A stretch of 64,000 nt of DNA from Thermoanaerobaculia bacterium (GTDB lineage Bacteria; Acidobacteriota; Thermoanaerobaculia; Multivoradales; UBA5704): contig DASWME010000219.1 in assembly GCA_036399915.1 (NCBI GenBank), forward strand, positions 343 to 64,342. The letters run 5' to 3'. The notes beneath the pieces were generated by a model, which did no database searches, was not told where the DNA came from, and saw only the letters and a program-made list of their open reading frames with translations. This document shows positions 7,927 through 13,975 of the stretch, piece after piece (within the stretch, counting starts at the first letter, position 1; every line of letters begins with the position of its first letter). The position numbers and the translations under genes are program-made.

Positions 7927-9096
<1,170 letters not shown>

Positions 9097-9705: not shown

Positions 9706-10482
9706 GTGATCACCAGCCGCCAAAATCAAAGGCTCAAGGATATTCGGCGGCTCCGGCGAAGGCAAGGCGAGCGCGCTCTGCTCGAAGGCCCCCACCTGGT
9801 GGAGGAAGCCCTCGCCGCCGGCCTCGCCCTGGAGGAGGTCCTGGCGACCCCGCCCTTCCTCGACTCGGCCGACGGGCGGCGGCTCGCCCGCTCCCTGCCG
9901 CGCCCGCCGCTCGAGGTGAGCCCGGACCTGCTCGCGGACCTCACCGACGCTGACTCCCCCCGCGGCGTCCTCGCCGTGGCCCTCCTCCCCCGCTCCGGCG
10001 TCGAGGCCCTGCCCGTCCGTCCGGGCCGACCCTACCTCTATCTGGACGGTCTCCAGGACCCGGGCAATCTCGGGGCCCTGGCCCGCGTGGCCGAGGCCGC
10101 CGGCGCCGCCGGGCTCGCCCTCTCCCCCGGCTGCGCCCACCCGAACCATCCGCGCGCCCTCCGCGCCTCGGCCGGCAGCCTCCTGCGCCTGCCCGTCGCC
10201 GTGAACGCCGACCCCGACGCCCTCGACCGCCATCTCGCCCCAACCCGCCCCCGCTGGACCGCCCTCGTGCCGCGCGACGGCGAGAACTTCTACCACGCTT
10301 CCCTCGCCGGCACCCTGATCCTCGCCGTGGGAGCCGAAGGCCCCGGCCTCTCCCCTCCTCTCCTCGCCCACGCCAGCCTGCGCCTGACCATCACCATGGA
10401 GCCGGCGGTCGAATCCCTCAACGCCACGGTGGCGGCGGCGCTGGTATTGTTCGAGGCCAGGAGACAGCGGGAAAACCCCTGA
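9706..10482 (+). CDS. TrmH/SpoU-family RNA 2'-O-methyltransferase
   Basis: GTG start. ITSRQNQRLKDIRRL... N-terminus, then LDGLQDPGNLGALARVAEAAGAAGL, LILAVGAEGPGLS and ESLNATVAAALVLFE (SpoU methylase motifs). Confidence 0.85.
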   Translation: MITSRQNQRLKDIRRLRRRQGERALLEGPHLVEEALAAGLALEEVLATPPFLDSADGRRLARSLPRPPLEVSPDLLADLTDADSPRGVLAVALLPRSGVEALPVRPGRPYLYLDGLQDPGNLGALARVAEAAGAAGLALSPGCAHPNHPRALRASAGSLLRLPVAVNADPDALDRHLAPTRPRWTALVPRDGENFYHASLAGTLILAVGAEGPGLSPPLLAHASLRLTITMEPAVESLNATVAAALVLFEARRQRENP

Positions 10483-10521
10483 AGGCGAAAGCGGGACGGT
10501 GAAAACCGCCCAAAAACTCCT

Positions 10522-10565
10522 CACACATTGTTTTTTCCCAAAAAACAATGTGTGGGTGGTTTTTT
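10522..10565 (+). terminator. candidate intrinsic terminator downstream of the TrmH-family gene (also the first element of the AT-rich repeat array)
   Basis: Perfect 15-bp inverted repeat CACACATTGTTTTTT-ccc-AAAAAACAATGTGTG (10522-10554), followed 5 nt later by TTTTTT (10560-10565). The stem is AU-rich, so the terminator role is uncertain. Confidence 0.35.
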
Positions 10566-10672
10566 ACATTGTTTTTTCCGTTCAAACAATGTTTGAGGGG
10601 AAGAAACAATGTGTTGGACCCAAAAAACAATGTTTGACGGCTTCAAATAATGTGTGACGGGAAAAACAATGT
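10522..10672. repeat. AT-rich array of 8 copies of the 9-mer AAACAATGT (6 direct, 2 inverted) phased at about 20 bp
   Basis: Inverted ACATTGTTT at 10525 and 10566. Direct AAACAATGT at 10543, 10584, 10604, 10625 and 10664, plus AAATAATGT at 10645. Spacings are 18, 23, 18, 20, 21, 20 and 19 bp. The direct copies extend to about 20-bp units (AAACAATGTKTGACGG-like). Confidence 0.9.
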
Positions 10673-10876
10673 TCTACGGGATTTCCAGTGTGAGAGGAGC
10701 CTGGAGACCGGGATTCGGCGGGATGGGGAGTTCGGCGCGGCTGCCCAGTGTTCAAGAGAATTCGAGGGCAGTAGAGCGTCCTTTCCGGCGCAAAACGGAG
10801 GGGCGGGCTTGTCCCCGCCCCCGCCCGGAGGGCGACGTTTCGCTGATAGGCTGAAGAGACTTCCAAGGAGACTCCC

Positions 10877-13272
10877 CTGGCCGACTCCTTCGACGTCTTC
10901 CTGAGCCACAACAGCAAGGACAAGCCGGCCGTCCGCCGGATCGCGGAGGCGTTGCGGGACCGGGGACTGCGCGTCTGGCTCGACGAGTGGGAGTTGATCC
11001 CGGGGCGCCGCTGGATTCCTGAGCTGGAGAAGGTCATTGAGACCACGAGGACGGCTGTGGTCCTGGTCGGAGAGAGTGGCTTCGGGCGATGGGAACAGCC
11101 CGAGTATGAGGCTTCTCTCTCGGAGTTCGTTGAGCGTGGCCTCCCTGTCATCCCCGTTCTGTTGCCCGGCGCGCCGGCCAAGCCCAAGGTCCCGCTCTTC
11201 CTGAAGGGCTTTACCTGGGTCGATCTCCGTGGCGGCATCACTGACGAAGGCTTGAGTCGCCTCGAATGGGGCATTACCGGCAGCAAACAGGATCGGGAGG
11301 CGAAGGTTCAGGTCTCCCAGGCCCCACGCCTCCACAACCTCCCTTTCCTCTCCATCCGCGACCTCCTGAAAGGACGGGACGAGGAACTCCAGCGCCTCCT
11401 CACCAACCTGGGAAGCTCGGCTCAGGCCACGGCGATCACCAGGCCATCCACGGCCTGGGGGGCATCGGCAAAACCCGGCTGGCCGTGGAGTATGCCTGGC
11501 GCTCGGGTAATCGGTACGATGCGGCCCTCTTCGTGACGGCGGACTCCCCCGAGGCGCTGCGGTCGGGTCTGGCGAGCCTAGCAGGGCCGCGCATCCTTGC
11601 CCTTCCCGAGTACCAGGCCGGAGCGGAGGCGGAGACCGTCGAGGCCGTCCTGCGCTGGCTCCGGGAGCATTCCCGGTGGCTGCTGATCCTGGACAACGTG
11701 GACACGGAAGAAGCCGTGTGGGCCGTCCGGGAGATCCTGCCGCAGCTTCAAAGCGGCCACATCCTCATCACCTCCCGTTGGACGGAATGGTCGGCCGGAA
11801 TCCAGGAACAGCCGCTCGGCGTCCTCTCGAGGGAAGAGGCTGCCCAGTTCCTCCTCCAGCGCACACAGAGAAAAAGAACGTCCGCACCGGATGACGCCGA
11901 GCAGGCGGGCCGTCTGGCGGACATCCTGGGCGGCCTTCCTCTGGCTCTGGAGCAGGCGGCAGCCTACATTCGCCGCCATCAGACTACCTTTGCCCGCTAT
12001 CTGGAGGATTGGGAGCGTGAGCGCGAGAAGGTTCTGGAGTGGCACGACAGAACCGTCATGGACTATCCCGCCTCCGTAGCGGCGACCTGGCAGACGACCT
12101 TCCGTCAGCTCAGCCCGAAAGCCGCCGCCCTTCTCCGTCTGACTGCCTTCCTCGCCCCGGAGCCTATCCCCGAAGCGATGTTTGAAGAGGGCGAGGGGAT
12201 CGTTGAGGAAGCGTCTGCGGCCCTCATAGAGGAAACTGATCAGCTGGCGATCGAGCGGACTGTCCGGGATGTCCTCGCGGAGCTGGCCGCCTACTCCATG
12301 GTGACCCGGTCGACCGGCAACTTTACCGTCCATCGCGTTGTGCAAGAGGTTCTCCGGACCCGAATCCCTGGCGACCGTCGCCGGGAGTGGATCGAACGTT
12401 CCGTACGTCTGGTAAACGCCTACGCGCCATTCGACGCTGACGATGTCCGTACCTGGCCTGTCTGGGACCTTCTCCGTCCCCACGCGTTGCGAATCGTTAA
12501 AGAGGCGGACGATGTTGGTATTCCTTATCCCACCGCCAGCCTCATGGGCCAGTTGGCGCTTCTCCTTTTCGAGAAGAGCCTCTACGCGGAGGCCGAGCCG
12601 TTGATGCAGCGGGCCTTACAGGTCGGAGAAGACACCCTCGGACCCAATCACCCAGCAGTCGCCATCCGCCTCAACAACCTGGCGTCGTTGCTTCAGGCCG
12701 CGAACCGTCTGTCGGAGGCCGAGCCGTTGATGCGGCGGGTGGTGGAATTCTTCGAAATCAATCTGGGTCCTAACCACCATAACCTCGCCACGGCTCTGAA
12801 CAACCTGGCTCAGTTGCTTCAGGCCACGAACCGTCTGTCGGAGGCCGAGCCGTTGATGTGGCGAGCTTTGCAGATCGACGAGGGCTCCTTCGGACCCCAG
12901 CACCCCAAAGTCGCTATCCGACTCAGCAACCTGGCAGCATTGCTTTACGCTACGAACCGTCTGTCAGAGGCCGAGCCGTTGATGCGGCGGGCCTTGCAGA
13001 TCGACGAGGACTCCTTCGGACCCCAGCACCCCAACGTCGCCAGAGACCTCAACAACCTGGCTCGGTTGCTTCAGGCCACGACCCGTCTGTCGGAGGCCGA
13101 GCCGTTGATGCGGCGGGCGGTGGAGATCTGCGAGGCCAGCCTAGGGCCGGACCACCCCAAGACGCGGATTGCGCGGAAGAACCTGGAAGCCCTCTTGGAG
13201 GAGATGGGGTTGGCAGGCTCGCAGGATAGCCAATCCACTGAGGACCCTCCCCCATCTCCCCGGACCGGGTAG
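10877..13272 (+). pseudogene. TIR - NB-ARC (STAND NTPase) - TPR protein; reading frame interrupted by an apparent 1-nt frameshift near 11440 and lacking an ATG/GTG/TTG start upstream of the TIR core
   Basis: Frame 2 encodes the TIR domain: (L)ADSFDVFLSHNSKDKPAVRRIAEALRDRGLRVWLDEWELIPG...VVLVGESGFGRWEQPEYE...VIPVLL, then ...NLPFLSIRDLLKGRDEELQRLLTNLGSSAQATAIT. Frame 1 continues with QAIHGLGGIGKTRLAVEYAW (P-loop), WLLILDNVD (Walker B), ILITSR, GGLPLALEQAAAYI (the GxPLA motif of NB-ARC) and five 42-aa TPR units. An in-frame TAG lies at 10847. AAGGAG (10865-10870) sits 6 nt before CTG 10877. Confidence 0.8.
12575..13204 (+). repeat. five tandem 126-bp (42-aa) repeats encoding the TPR array of the STAND gene
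   Basis: The core CGAACCGTCTGTCGGAGGCCGAGCCGTTGATG recurs at 12701, 12827, 12953 and 13079 (CGACCC variant), an exact 126-bp period. A partial first copy has GAGGCCGAGCCGTTGATG at 12589. Confidence 0.9.
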
Positions 13273-13308
13273 AATCCGCCGGACTCGATCTCGGGGGAGA
13301 CGCGGCCC

Positions 13309-13740: not shown

Positions 13741-13786
13741 GCCCTCGCACCAAAGGAACACGCTCCGGCCAGGGCTGGCCCGCCCT

Positions 13787-13975
13787 GGAGGGGCGGAATT
13801 TGAATAGCCCGGGGCGGAAGCCCCGGGTACGGATGCCCAGACCAACCCGTCGAGCCCCGAAGGGGCGGCAGGCGCAGGTCCGGCCTCCTGATGTCGCCCT
13901 TTCAGGGCTCAACCGTGATTGTTGGCGCTCCGTTCCCGGGGCTTCCGCCCCGGGCTATTCAAATCCTGCCCCTCC
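13787..13975. repeat. REP/MITE-like element, family B: two 41-bp arms in inverted orientation around a 107-bp core
   Basis: Arm 1 (13787-13827) is GGAGGGGCGGAATTTGAATAGCCCGGGGCGGAAGCCCCGGG. Arm 2 (13935-13975) is its reverse complement with 2-3 mismatches. Each arm contains an 8-bp hairpin CCCGGGGC-GGAA-GCCCCGGG (a GNRA loop in one orientation). Confidence 0.8.

What the first reader, a model, noticed from the sequence alone, without database searches (positions are those of the whole stretch)
10522..10672. AT-rich, helically phased array of AAACAATGT motifs immediately upstream of the TIR-STAND gene
A stretch of about 150 bp (about 35-40% GC by eye, in a genome near 70% GC) carries eight copies of one 9-mer. 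Two are inverted (10525, 10566), five are exact direct copies (10543, 10584, 10604, 10625, 10664) and one is a one-mismatch copy (10645). Spacing is 18-23 bp, about two helical turns. The first pair forms a perfect 15-bp hairpin. The last five are really about 20-bp tandem units (AAACAATGTKTGACGG-like). Nothing in the coding annotation explains this. The geometry resembles iterons or arm-type recombinase sites, or a cooperative regulator or nucleoid-protein loading array. It marks the left edge of the lower-GC islet carrying the TIR-NB-ARC-TPR gene. It could therefore be the control region of that gene or the scar or att-like end of the insertion.
Basis: seen in the sequence. Interest (0 to 1): 0.7.

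Follow-up and report, generated by a model that had tools for sequence, protein, structure and literature searches.

The report
Dispersed repeat made of phased palindromes
The AT-rich motif array is real, but it is one copy of a roughly 200-bp repeat scattered through the genomes of one group of soil Acidobacteria. It is not a control region built for the neighbouring immune-type gene.

Summary
Observation confirmed. Window 10517-10699 holds nine units, the ninth degenerate, with a 19-21 bp centre-to-centre period. GC is about 39% in a 69% GC window, and 10 motif matches are seen where 0.76 are expected.

The motif is really a dyad, AAACA-W-TGTTT.

The same architecture recurs in 22 loci of 11 Thermoanaerobaculia/Acidobacteriota assemblies:
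- 5-10 units per array; 113 of 132 core-to-core intervals are 20 or 21 bp.
- Up to six copies per genome.
- Copies at unrelated loci are 76-91% identical, spacers included.
- Arrays lie 17-90 bp after stop codons: 10 between convergent genes, 6 between co-directional genes, 0 between divergent genes.
- No recurrent neighbouring gene.

One copy is a clean roughly 230-bp insertion between a response-regulator gene and a kinase gene that abut in three close relatives.

At this locus the array and the TIR/NB-ARC-TPR gene are present together or absent together. They form a roughly 2.8-kb insertion into an ancestral trmH-rpiB junction.

Best reading: a clade-specific, non-autonomous, foldback/MITE-like or BIME-like repeat built from phased protein-binding-type dyads. 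It is slowly decaying here, and its first hairpin looks like a bidirectional terminator. The binding protein, the mobilising enzyme and any host function remain unknown.

The parts
10517..10699 (.). Whole repeat element: nine 20/21-bp units with overall foldback (dyad) symmetry centred on unit 5
   Evidence: A profile built from 16 family members hits 10500-10703 on + (E 5e-43) and 10561-10712 on - (E 5.5e-24), and nowhere else in the window.
10523..10533 (.). Unit 1 core ACACATTGTTT (centre T, 10528)
10543..10553 (.). Unit 2 core AAACAATGTGT (centre 10548)
10564..10574 (.). Unit 3 core TTACATTGTTT (centre 10569)
10584..10594 (.). Unit 4 core AAACAATGTTT (centre 10589), full consensus dyad
10604..10614 (.). 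Unit 5 core AAACAATGTGT (centre 10609), centre of symmetry of the element
10625..10635 (.). Unit 6 core AAACAATGTTT (centre 10630)
10645..10655 (.). Unit 7 core AAATAATGTGT (centre 10650), one mismatch. The orthologous copy in L120 is intact (ACAATGT).
10664..10674 (.). Unit 8 core AAACAATGTTC (centre 10669)
10684..10694 (.). Unit 9, degenerate core TTCCAGTGTGA (centre 10689), in phase. L120 has TTTCATTGTAG here.
10520..10566 (.). Hairpin formed by units 1 and 2 (17 pairs, 15 of them perfect, CCC loop) followed by a T-run on either strand. It is terminator-like in both directions and starts 38 nt after the trmH stop codon.
10517..10524 (.). Left terminal segment CTCCTCAC, inverted copy of 10690-10699
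   Evidence: read; compare (I3)
10690..10699 (.). Right terminal segment GTGAGAGGAG, reverse complement of CTCCTC(T)CAC
   Evidence: read
9706..10482 (+). SpoU/TrmH methyltransferase gene. The array begins about 35-40 bp after its stop codon.
10465..13268 (+). Approximate extent of the insertion relative to the ancestral trmH-rpiB junction: array element, then a spacer of about 180 bp, then the TIR/NB-ARC-TPR gene
   Evidence: The empty sites are L125, L128, L129, L130, L132, L135, L136, L141 and L146.
10877..11536 (+). TIR-domain ORF. It probably starts at CTG 10877, after the ribosome-binding sequence AAGGAG at 10865-10870.
11266..13272 (+). NB-ARC/TPR (STAND) ORF, in a different frame from the TIR ORF. 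Homology to the single ORF of L120 switches frame at about 11440-11473.

Best explanation
Window 10517-10699 is one copy of a clade-specific interspersed repeat of Thermoanaerobaculia (Acidobacteriota). The repeat is non-coding and about 200 bp long.

Shown by the analysis:
- The element consists of 5-10 units with a 20/21-bp period.
- Each unit carries the dyad AAACA-W-TGTTT. Spacers have a G/C triplet at their midpoint and usually A-runs or T-runs at their edges.
- The spacers on the left half of the element are often the inverse of those on the right, so the whole element folds back on itself.
- Copies arise by insertion into very short spaces behind genes, and they gain or lose units.

Inferred:
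- Each dyad is a binding site for a dimeric sequence-specific DNA-binding protein. Two-turn phasing would put all dimers on one face of an intrinsically curved stretch of DNA.
- That protein is either the transposase or recombinase that moves the element in trans, or a host protein that uses the element in the way gyrase and IHF use REP/BIME.

At this locus:
- The copy lies at the upstream end of a roughly 2.8-kb insertion that also brought the TIR/NB-ARC-TPR gene.
- It is diverging from its ortholog in L120 at the same rate in cores and spacers.
- Its only locally plausible role is incidental: the unit 1-2 hairpin with flanking T-runs can terminate trmH transcripts and insulate the TIR gene.
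For: Family and copy number:
- The genome scan, followed by inspection, gives 22 high-GC Acidobacteriota/Thermoanaerobaculia loci in 11 assemblies. Several genomes hold more than one copy: CAVWOZ01 has 6, DASVEF01 has 3, and OY970373, JBKPTH01 and JBIOVX01 have 2 each.
- Of 132 intervals between the 155 exact cores, 91 are 20 bp and 22 are 21 bp. Most others are 39-42 bp, where one unit has decayed. The position matrix is symmetric, with S-S-S at +/-9 to 11.

Common descent of copies:
- Copies at different loci are 76-91% identical over about 130-290 bp, spacers included. Homology stops about 35 bp outside the array.
- Copies share idiosyncratic internal units.
- Unit number varies between copies: L081 against L089, and L097 against L100.

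Insertion:
- L042 has 237 bp, array included, between the stop codon of a sigma-54 response-regulator gene and the start codon of its kinase gene.
- In L208, L209 and L210 (90-93% identical regulator) the same two genes are 7 bp, overlapping (TGATG) and 7 bp apart.

Position relative to genes:
- 10 arrays lie between convergent genes, 6 between co-directional genes and 0 between divergent genes. P = 0.0016 for the convergent excess and 0.010 for the lack of divergent sites.
- Neighbouring genes are unrelated, and no protein family recurs within +/-3 kb.

Foldback symmetry:
- The element profile matches both strands. Inverted arms and ends appear.

Curvature (wedge model):
- The array is the most curved 180-bp segment of the window. 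End-to-end/contour is 0.67 against a median of 0.98, and 0 of 300 shuffles reach it.
- It is also the most curved segment in 17 of 22 family loci.

Decay: cores 10/99 and spacers 10/86 differences between the window and L120.

Terminator-like hairpin.
Against: - No transposase or recombinase with matching ends was found. One IS1-like ORF next to L074 has no second array.
- No convincing target-site duplication. The only candidate is a possible 5-bp GCGGG at L042.
- Terminal inverted repeats are short and differ between subfamilies.
- Arrays of nine phased dyads are not a normal MITE anatomy.
- The dyad core is kept even in a subfamily whose spacers are GC-rich and not predicted to be curved (L076, L097, L100). 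That hints at selection for a binding function rather than pure selfishness.
Copy numbers are therefore lower bounds, and chromosome-wide positions are unknown.
- Gene orientation calls rest on a GC3-based ORF heuristic.
- The curvature parameters were recalled from memory and checked only with A4T4/T4A4 controls.
Confidence: 0.7

Rival explanations
1. The arrays are domesticated host sites in the manner of BIME/REP, not merely selfish DNA. A nucleoid-associated protein, gyrase or a roadblock/termination factor loads cooperatively on the phased dyads at gene 3' ends. There it relaxes supercoils between convergent genes or stops read-through. This overlaps with the best explanation: the same DNA could be both mobile and used by the host.
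For: - Strict 20/21-bp phasing and a symmetric core are kept across subfamilies with different spacers.
- There is a strong bias to convergent and 3'-end positions.
- Predicted curvature is present in 17 of 22 arrays.
- A bidirectional terminator-like hairpin sits 38 nt after trmH.
- L042 tolerates the array inside an operon.
Against: - Orthologous copies lose cores as fast as spacers. The window has lost units 7 and 9. L120 has lost units 1, 3 and 9.
- Most relatives lack any array at the same junctions, so no locus needs one.
- Density is low: one copy in this 64 kb and none in the other relatives' loci.
- A position bias towards 3' ends is also expected from selection against insertions into promoters.
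Confidence: 0.3
2. The array is the dedicated cis-regulatory region of the TIR/NB-ARC-TPR gene. In this reading a repressor or silencer polymerises on it to keep a toxic effector off.
For: - It lies 178-350 bp upstream of the TIR start on the same strand.
- It is present only where the gene is present at this locus.
- It is AT-rich and predicted to be curved, like silencer nucleation sites.
Against: - The same arrays occur at 21 other loci without any TIR or STAND gene, mostly downstream of genes and in either orientation.
- No regulator gene lies in the islet.
- Cores are decaying.
- A GC-rich hairpin and about 180 bp separate the array from the gene.
Confidence: 0.07
3. The array is transcribed as a repetitive non-coding RNA. 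It could be a protein sponge, or a type III antitoxin-like repeat RNA that neutralises the downstream effector.
For: - Tandem repeats are followed by a GC-rich hairpin (10800-10821) and then a toxic-type gene, which superficially resembles the ToxI-ToxN layout.
- The predicted fold is very stable, with z = -7.1.
- Some other copies lie near PIN, HTH_37 or Uma2 genes.
Against: - No Rfam family reaches threshold. The best score is 30 bits against a gathering score of 43.
- Units are 20/21 nt palindromes, not oriented repeats of 34-45 nt.
- Orientation relative to neighbours is mixed, and most neighbours are housekeeping genes.
- Fold stability follows trivially from self-complementary units.
- There is no ToxN/AbiQ-like gene.
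Confidence: 0.05
4. The array is a set of iterons or a partition centromere, or the arm-type att sites, of an integrated plasmid, phage or island.
For: - The period of about 20 bp, the 8-9 units and the dyad units resemble the lambda ori iterons and the 20-bp parC repeats of pSK41 (from my own knowledge, not tested here).
- It lies at the edge of an insertion.
Against: - No rep, par, integrase or partner array lies in the islet or the window.
- There are several copies per chromosome.
- There is no match in the plasmid or phage collections. Viral contigs gave only unrelated iteron or tandem repeats.
- One copy lies inside an operon.
Confidence: 0.03

Closest known systems
REP/BIME elements of Enterobacteria and pseudomonads (repetitive extragenic palindromes clustered into mosaic arrays)
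   Same: Extragenic and dispersed. They are found after stop codons, between convergent genes and inside operons. They occur as clusters of palindromic units in both orientations, vary in unit number, are lineage-specific and act as protein-binding platforms.
   Different: REP units are GC-rich 20-40-bp hairpins with GTAG/CGTC tags, and RAYT transposases move them. Here the unit is an AT-rich 11-bp dyad with no loop, held at a strict 20/21-bp period. There is no GTAG tag, and no RAYT was seen nearby.
MITEs and foldback-type non-autonomous transposons (for example Correia, RUP and ERIC; eukaryotic Foldback elements whose arms are tandem subrepeats)
   Same: Small (about 200-430 bp), non-coding and multi-copy, with overall inverted-repeat symmetry and insertion polymorphism between close relatives. 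Copies are 76-91% identical at unrelated loci.
   Different: No clear target-site duplication and no autonomous partner were identified. The body is almost entirely phased subrepeats, which is unusual for bacterial MITEs.
Multi-site transposon ends (Tn7 TnsB sites, Mu MuA sites)
   Same: Several binding sites of about 20-22 bp are packed in 100-200 bp, with opposite orientation in the two halves.
   Different: Those sites are asymmetric, they flank a gene-carrying body, and the elements end in TGT...ACA with 5-bp duplications. None of this is shown here.
Iteron arrays and type II/III plasmid centromeres (lambda ori, pSK41 parC, tubC)
   Same: Tandem units of about 20 bp, some of them dyad-symmetric, phased on one face of the helix, with cooperative protein filaments on bent DNA.
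   Different: Those arrays are single-copy per replicon and adjacent to their rep or par gene. These are multi-copy, chromosomal and orphan.
Tandem ARG boxes (ArgR/AhrC operators)
   Same: AT-rich dyads with a centre-to-centre distance of about 21 bp, bound by an oligomer on one face of the helix.
   Different: ARG boxes come as 2-4 boxes in the promoters of one regulon, with a different sequence. These arrays avoid promoter regions.

Membership tests
Iterons of a replication origin | Array adjacent to (or inside) the gene of its initiator protein, with an AT-rich unwinding element and DnaA boxes | tested here: not met
   The neighbours are trmH and a TIR/NB-ARC-TPR gene, and no Rep-like domain is present. 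The other 21 arrays have unrelated neighbours.
Iterons of a replication origin | One array set per replicon | tested here: not met
   At least 6 arrays in one MAG and 2 on the complete chromosome OY970373.1.
att site with arm-type recombinase sites | Integrase gene in the element, and a matching site or duplication at the other end | tested here: not met
   There is no integrase between 10465 and 13268. There is no second array or core cluster in the window. The right junction lies in the rpiB TAGAAT box and has no repeat.
MITE (non-autonomous transposable element) | Small, non-coding, multiple dispersed copies of common descent | tested here: met
   22 loci. Pairs within one genome are 82-91% identical over 129-293 bp.
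MITE (non-autonomous transposable element) | Presence/absence polymorphism at orthologous sites | tested here: met
   L042 is filled, and L208, L209 and L210 are empty. The window and L120 are filled, and nine relatives have empty trmH-rpiB junctions.
MITE (non-autonomous transposable element) | Terminal inverted repeats | tested here: inconclusive
   The window has CTCCTCAC / GTGAGAGGAG. L097 and L100 have TGGGAGCGCC / GGCGCTCCCA. These repeats are short, differ between subfamilies, and are hard to separate from the internal dyads.
MITE (non-autonomous transposable element) | Target-site duplication | tested here: inconclusive
   The only candidate is a 5-bp GCGGG on both sides in L042. None is visible at L097 or L100.
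MITE (non-autonomous transposable element) | Autonomous partner with the same ends encoding a transposase | tested here: not met
   None lies within +/-3 kb of any array. The IS1-like ORF by L074 has no second array. Whole genomes could not be searched.
REP/BIME | Unit is a 20-40-bp imperfect palindrome that forms its own hairpin, with a GTAG or CGTC tag | tested here: not met
   The core AAACAWTGTTT has a 1-nt centre and no tag. Hairpins form only between neighbouring units.
REP/BIME | Extragenic, 3' of genes, clustered units in both orientations | tested here: met
REP/BIME | Associated RAYT (IS200/IS605-like) transposase in the genome | not testable with these tools
   Only 8-kb loci of the MAGs were available.
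Type III toxin-antitoxin (ToxIN-like) | Oriented tandem repeats of about 34-45 nt, then a terminator, then a ToxN/AbiQ-family endoribonuclease gene | tested here: not met
   The units are 20/21-nt dyads. The downstream gene is TIR plus NB-ARC/TPR. Most copies have no toxin neighbour.
CRISPR array | Repeats of 23-50 bp separated by unique spacers of similar length | tested here: not met
   The cores are 11 bp, and the 9-10-bp spacers are stereotyped.
Known RNA families (Rfam 15) | Score at or above the family gathering threshold | tested here: not met
   Nothing reaches threshold at 10400-10950. The best score is 30.2 bits against a threshold of 43.

The most novel reading that the evidence does not exclude
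The AAACA-W-TGTTT arrays are loading platforms for an unidentified, Thermoanaerobaculia-specific dimeric DNA-binding protein. On each array that protein would form a filament of about 8-10 dimers on one face of curved DNA, behind genes. This would be a new kind of chromosomal organising, insulating or termination site. It would spread as a foldback element made only of its own binding sites, and might nucleate the acquisition of accessory 'islets' such as the TIR-STAND gene here.
Probability: 0.2. Interest if true: 0.65.

Novelty: new variant of a known kind. Interest (0 to 1): 0.4.

Why it matters
For this locus, the result removes a tempting story of a bespoke switch or att site for an immune gene. 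It replaces that story with a testable one.

More generally, it defines what appears to be an undescribed interspersed repeat family in an uncultured, abundant soil lineage. No hit came from Rfam, the phage or plasmid collections, or the two literature searches.

The family's anatomy is unusual: a precise two-turn array of AT-rich dyads in about 70% GC genomes. That anatomy predicts a specific binding protein that could be fished out.

Such repeats are also useful as markers for MAG strain typing. They are a source of assembly breaks, and they may act as terminators or insulators next to horizontally acquired genes.

Tried and rejected
- Plasmid and phage BLAST of 10480-10880: no match.
- Rfam at gathering and at permissive thresholds: nothing relevant.
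- tRNA scan, looking for an integration target: none in the window.
- Viral-contig scan with a family-specific pattern: only two unrelated arrays, a phage iteron-like array (L126) and a low-GC tandem repeat (L127).
- About 95 low-GC hits of the genome scan (cyanobacteria, Bacteroidota, archaea and others) are exact simple tandem repeats with other periods or flanks. I set them aside as unrelated.
- Search for a recurrent neighbouring protein, or a transposase with a second array: none.
- A conserved 'right-hand module' beyond the array (CTGTTCGAG ... TTTCCGG-AAA) looked possible in MAFFT alignments. It is weak and may be only decayed units in phase, so I did not rely on it.
- A sigma-54 promoter in the left flank: the GG/GC spacing does not fit (by eye).
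- A sigma-70 promoter: only one weak consensus hit inside the array.
- Literature search for the motif, and for Acidobacteria repeats: nothing pertinent.
- One alignment was run with the wrong relative orientation. It was redone.

Full report
**1. The observation**

The sequence at 10522-10672 is as described. It has seven exact AAACAATGT and one AAATAATGT. That is 10 matches at up to one mismatch against 0.76 expected, and 0 of 100 shuffles reach 10. The 7-mer core occurs only once more in the 64 kb.

GC falls to 0.39 over 200 bp and 0.36 over 120 bp. This is the deepest trough of a 0.693-GC window. TRF finds period 20. The 15-bp perfect hairpin (10522-10536 / 10540-10554) is real.

Three refinements follow.
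- The motif is a near-palindrome, AAACA-W-TGTTT. The 'inverted' copies are mostly centre-base variants. Centre-to-centre spacing is 20, 21, 20, 20, 21, 20, 19 bp, not 18-23 bp.
- A ninth, degenerate unit (CCAGTGT, 10686-10692) continues the phase. It is TCATTGT in the closest relative.
- The element ends in short inverted segments (CTCCTCAC at 10517-10524, GTGAGAGGAG at 10690-10699). Its centre of symmetry is unit 5.

**2. It is a member of a dispersed family**

I scanned one genome per GTDB species for three AACAATGT copies 8-16 bp apart.

About 95 of these lie in low-GC genomes. They are exact simple tandem repeats of other design.

Twenty-two lie in high-GC Acidobacteriota/Thermoanaerobaculia MAGs from 11 assemblies, and all show the window's architecture.
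- Each array has 5-10 units.
- Across 23 arrays there are 155 exact cores. Of the 132 intervals between them, 91 are 20 bp and 22 are 21 bp. Most of the rest are 39-42 bp, where one unit has decayed.
- The position matrix is symmetric: AA-ACA-W-TGT-TT with an S-S-S clamp at +/-9 to 11.
- Spacers come in two mirror forms, TTGAnnSSAAAAA and TTTTTSSnnTCAA. These are often segregated into the right and left halves of the array, which gives a foldback.

Several genomes hold several copies: 6 in CAVWOZ01, 3 in DASVEF01, and 2 each in OY970373.1, JBKPTH01 and JBIOVX01.

Copies at different loci, in the same or different species, are 76-91% identical with spacers included. Homology ends about 35 bp outside the array. 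They share idiosyncratic irregular units and differ in unit number. They therefore descend from common elements and are not independently evolved operators.

A profile built from 16 members finds exactly one copy in the window, and it matches on both strands.

**3. Where the copies sit**

I called genes with a GC3-based ORF heuristic. Sixteen independent arrays have both neighbours called. Ten lie between convergent genes, 6 between co-directional genes and none between divergent genes. The probabilities are P = 0.0016 and 0.010.

Arrays start 17-90 bp after a stop codon. In the six co-directional cases their orientation relative to the genes is mixed.

Neighbours are unrelated: a DUF6930/TPR protein, a Rieske oxidoreductase, HSP20, an HTH_37 protein, PIN, Uma2 (twice), a sigma-54 regulator with its kinase, HflX, an FGGY kinase, PhoD, cytochromes and an IS1-like ORF. 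No protein family recurs within +/-3 kb.

**4. Insertion**

L042 carries an array in a 237-bp spacer between a sigma-54 response-regulator gene and its histidine-kinase gene. In three contigs whose regulator is 90-93% identical, the two genes are 7 bp apart, overlapping (TGATG), and 7 bp apart. The element is therefore a clean insertion of about 230 bp into a tiny spacer. A 5-bp GCGGG on both sides might be a target duplication, but in GC-rich DNA this is not conclusive.

**5. This locus**

The window's source is a Thermoanaerobaculia-like metagenome organism. An Acido-Lenti-1 RNA lies nearby.

In nine relatives (TrmH 71-85% identical) trmH is followed by rpiB within about 35-95 bp, or overlaps it. 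None has an array or a TIR/STAND gene.

Only the window (with L001 and L002) and L120/L121 (TrmH 91%) have the array. Both also have the TIR/NB-ARC-TPR gene.

The insertion spans about 10465-13268. At its right edge the STAND stop codon is the TAG of the conserved rpiB TAGAAT box. The same box holds the trmH stop codon in empty sites.

But the junction is a general hotspot.
- L124 carries a different 2.4-kb islet with vapBC.
- L123 carries a 286-bp GC-rich periodic repeat.
- L120 has an extra Transposase_31 gene.

Between the window and L120 the array differs at 10 of 99 core positions and 10 of 86 spacer positions (Fisher P = 0.81). Different units have decayed in each lineage. So there is no sign of extra constraint on the binding-type cores here.

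**6. Physical properties**

The unit 1-2 hairpin is followed by T-runs on both strands and begins 38 nt after the trmH stop. It is a bidirectional terminator-like structure.

Both strands fold far better than shuffles, with z = -5.7 for DNA and -7.1 for RNA. This follows trivially from self-complementary units.

I also ran a wedge-model curvature calculation. I recalled the Bolshoy/Trifonov parameters from memory, and the A4T4/T4A4 controls behaved correctly.
- The array is the most curved 180-bp segment of the whole window. End-to-end/contour is 0.67 against a median of 0.98, and 0 of 300 shuffles reach it.
- The same holds in 17 of 22 family loci.
- It does not hold in the DASVEF01 subfamily, whose spacers are GC-rich.

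What is conserved across the family is therefore the dyad and the 20/21-bp period, not curvature as such.

**7. Interpretation**

Shown:
- A clade-specific, multi-copy, insertional, non-coding element.
- It is built of phased dyads.
- It is located behind genes.
- It has no fixed partner gene.

Inferred: each dyad binds a dimeric protein, and two-turn phasing aligns the dimers on one face of the helix. That protein is either the enzyme that mobilises the element in trans (foldback/MITE logic), or a host factor that uses it (REP/BIME logic), or both.

For the TIR gene, the most the array plausibly does is terminate or insulate transcription coming from trmH.

Dedicated operator, iteron, centromere, att-arm and type III antitoxin readings each fail defining features that I tested (see the membership table). 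No Rfam family, phage or plasmid match, or paper was found for the motif.

**8. Verdict**

I rate it a new variant of a known kind (interspersed extragenic repeats). Interest is moderate: the anatomy is unusual and predicts a specific unknown binding protein, but at this locus it looks like a decaying passenger.

Limits:
- The genome scan was truncated.
- Only 8-kb pieces of MAGs were available, so genome-wide copy number, chromosomal distribution and an autonomous partner could not be assessed.

Noticed in passing
window 10877-13272: The TIR and NB-ARC/TPR parts lie in two overlapping frames, with a frame switch at about 11440-11473. The relative L120 has a single 757-aa ORF. The window's gene is therefore either frameshifted (a pseudogene) or split. 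The TIR part is only 49% identical to L120, against 80% for the STAND part, which suggests exchange or fast evolution of the effector domain. PADLOC gives only generic TIR hits.
   Followed up: partly
window 10865-10879: The conserved TIR beta-strand (FDVFLSH) lies upstream of the first ATG/GTG/TTG in its frame. A CTG at 10877, 6 nt after AAGGAG, is conserved in L120, so a CTG start codon is likely. Automatic gene calls in L001 and L120 truncate the N-terminus.
   Followed up: partly
window 13268-13275; L128, L129, L125 and other empty-site loci: The STAND stop codon is the TAG of a conserved TAGAAT box upstream of rpiB. In relatives without the islet, the trmH stop codon sits in the same box. 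The trmH-rpiB junction is an insertion hotspot: a TIR-STAND gene, a vapBC islet, a Transposase_31 gene and repeat arrays have landed there in different lineages.
   Followed up: partly
L123 10790-11075 (OY970373.1): The trmH-rpiB spacer of this relative consists of about 11 units of a GC-rich repeat of about 20 bp (consensus CATCCTGGCTTCCCGGTCCGG). It has the same period as the AAACAWTGTTT array but a different sequence. It may be a sister family.
   Followed up: no
L124 about 8150-8520: In the islet at the same hotspot, about 11 copies of an AT-rich CTATATAG-like motif at irregular 25-50-bp spacing lie upstream of a vapB/PIN pair, in a roughly 68% GC genome.
   Followed up: no
window 13781-13827 (-): An Acido-Lenti-1 sRNA (Rfam RF01687, 39.6 bits against a gathering score of 37) lies between rpiB and murB. 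This is consistent with an acidobacterial origin for the window.
   Followed up: no
window 10800-10821: A GC-rich hairpin (GGGGCGGG-CTTGT-CCCCGCCCC) lies between the array and the TIR gene. A related GC-rich stretch is present in L120. It could be an attenuator or terminator ahead of the TIR gene.
   Followed up: no
L053, L014, L018 and other heterocystous cyanobacteria: Long, nearly exact 21-bp tandem arrays (for example CGCCTTACATTGTTAATGTAA, 12-16 copies) recur in Nostoc, Calothrix, Fischerella and Chlorogloeopsis genomes, several per genome. They are unrelated in sequence context to the acidobacterial family but share the 21-bp period and an ACATTGT core.
   Followed up: no
L126 about 1200-1400 (IMG/VR contig, GC 0.49): An iteron-like run of roughly 21-bp GTTTTCGAAAATCGAAA units, three of them preceded by ACAATGT. 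It looks like a phage origin-type array and is unrelated to the family studied.
   Followed up: no
L120 9347-10318: A Transposase_31 (PDDEXK, Rpn/YhgA-like) gene is inserted between the STAND gene and rpiB in the closest relative. It is absent from the window.
   Followed up: no
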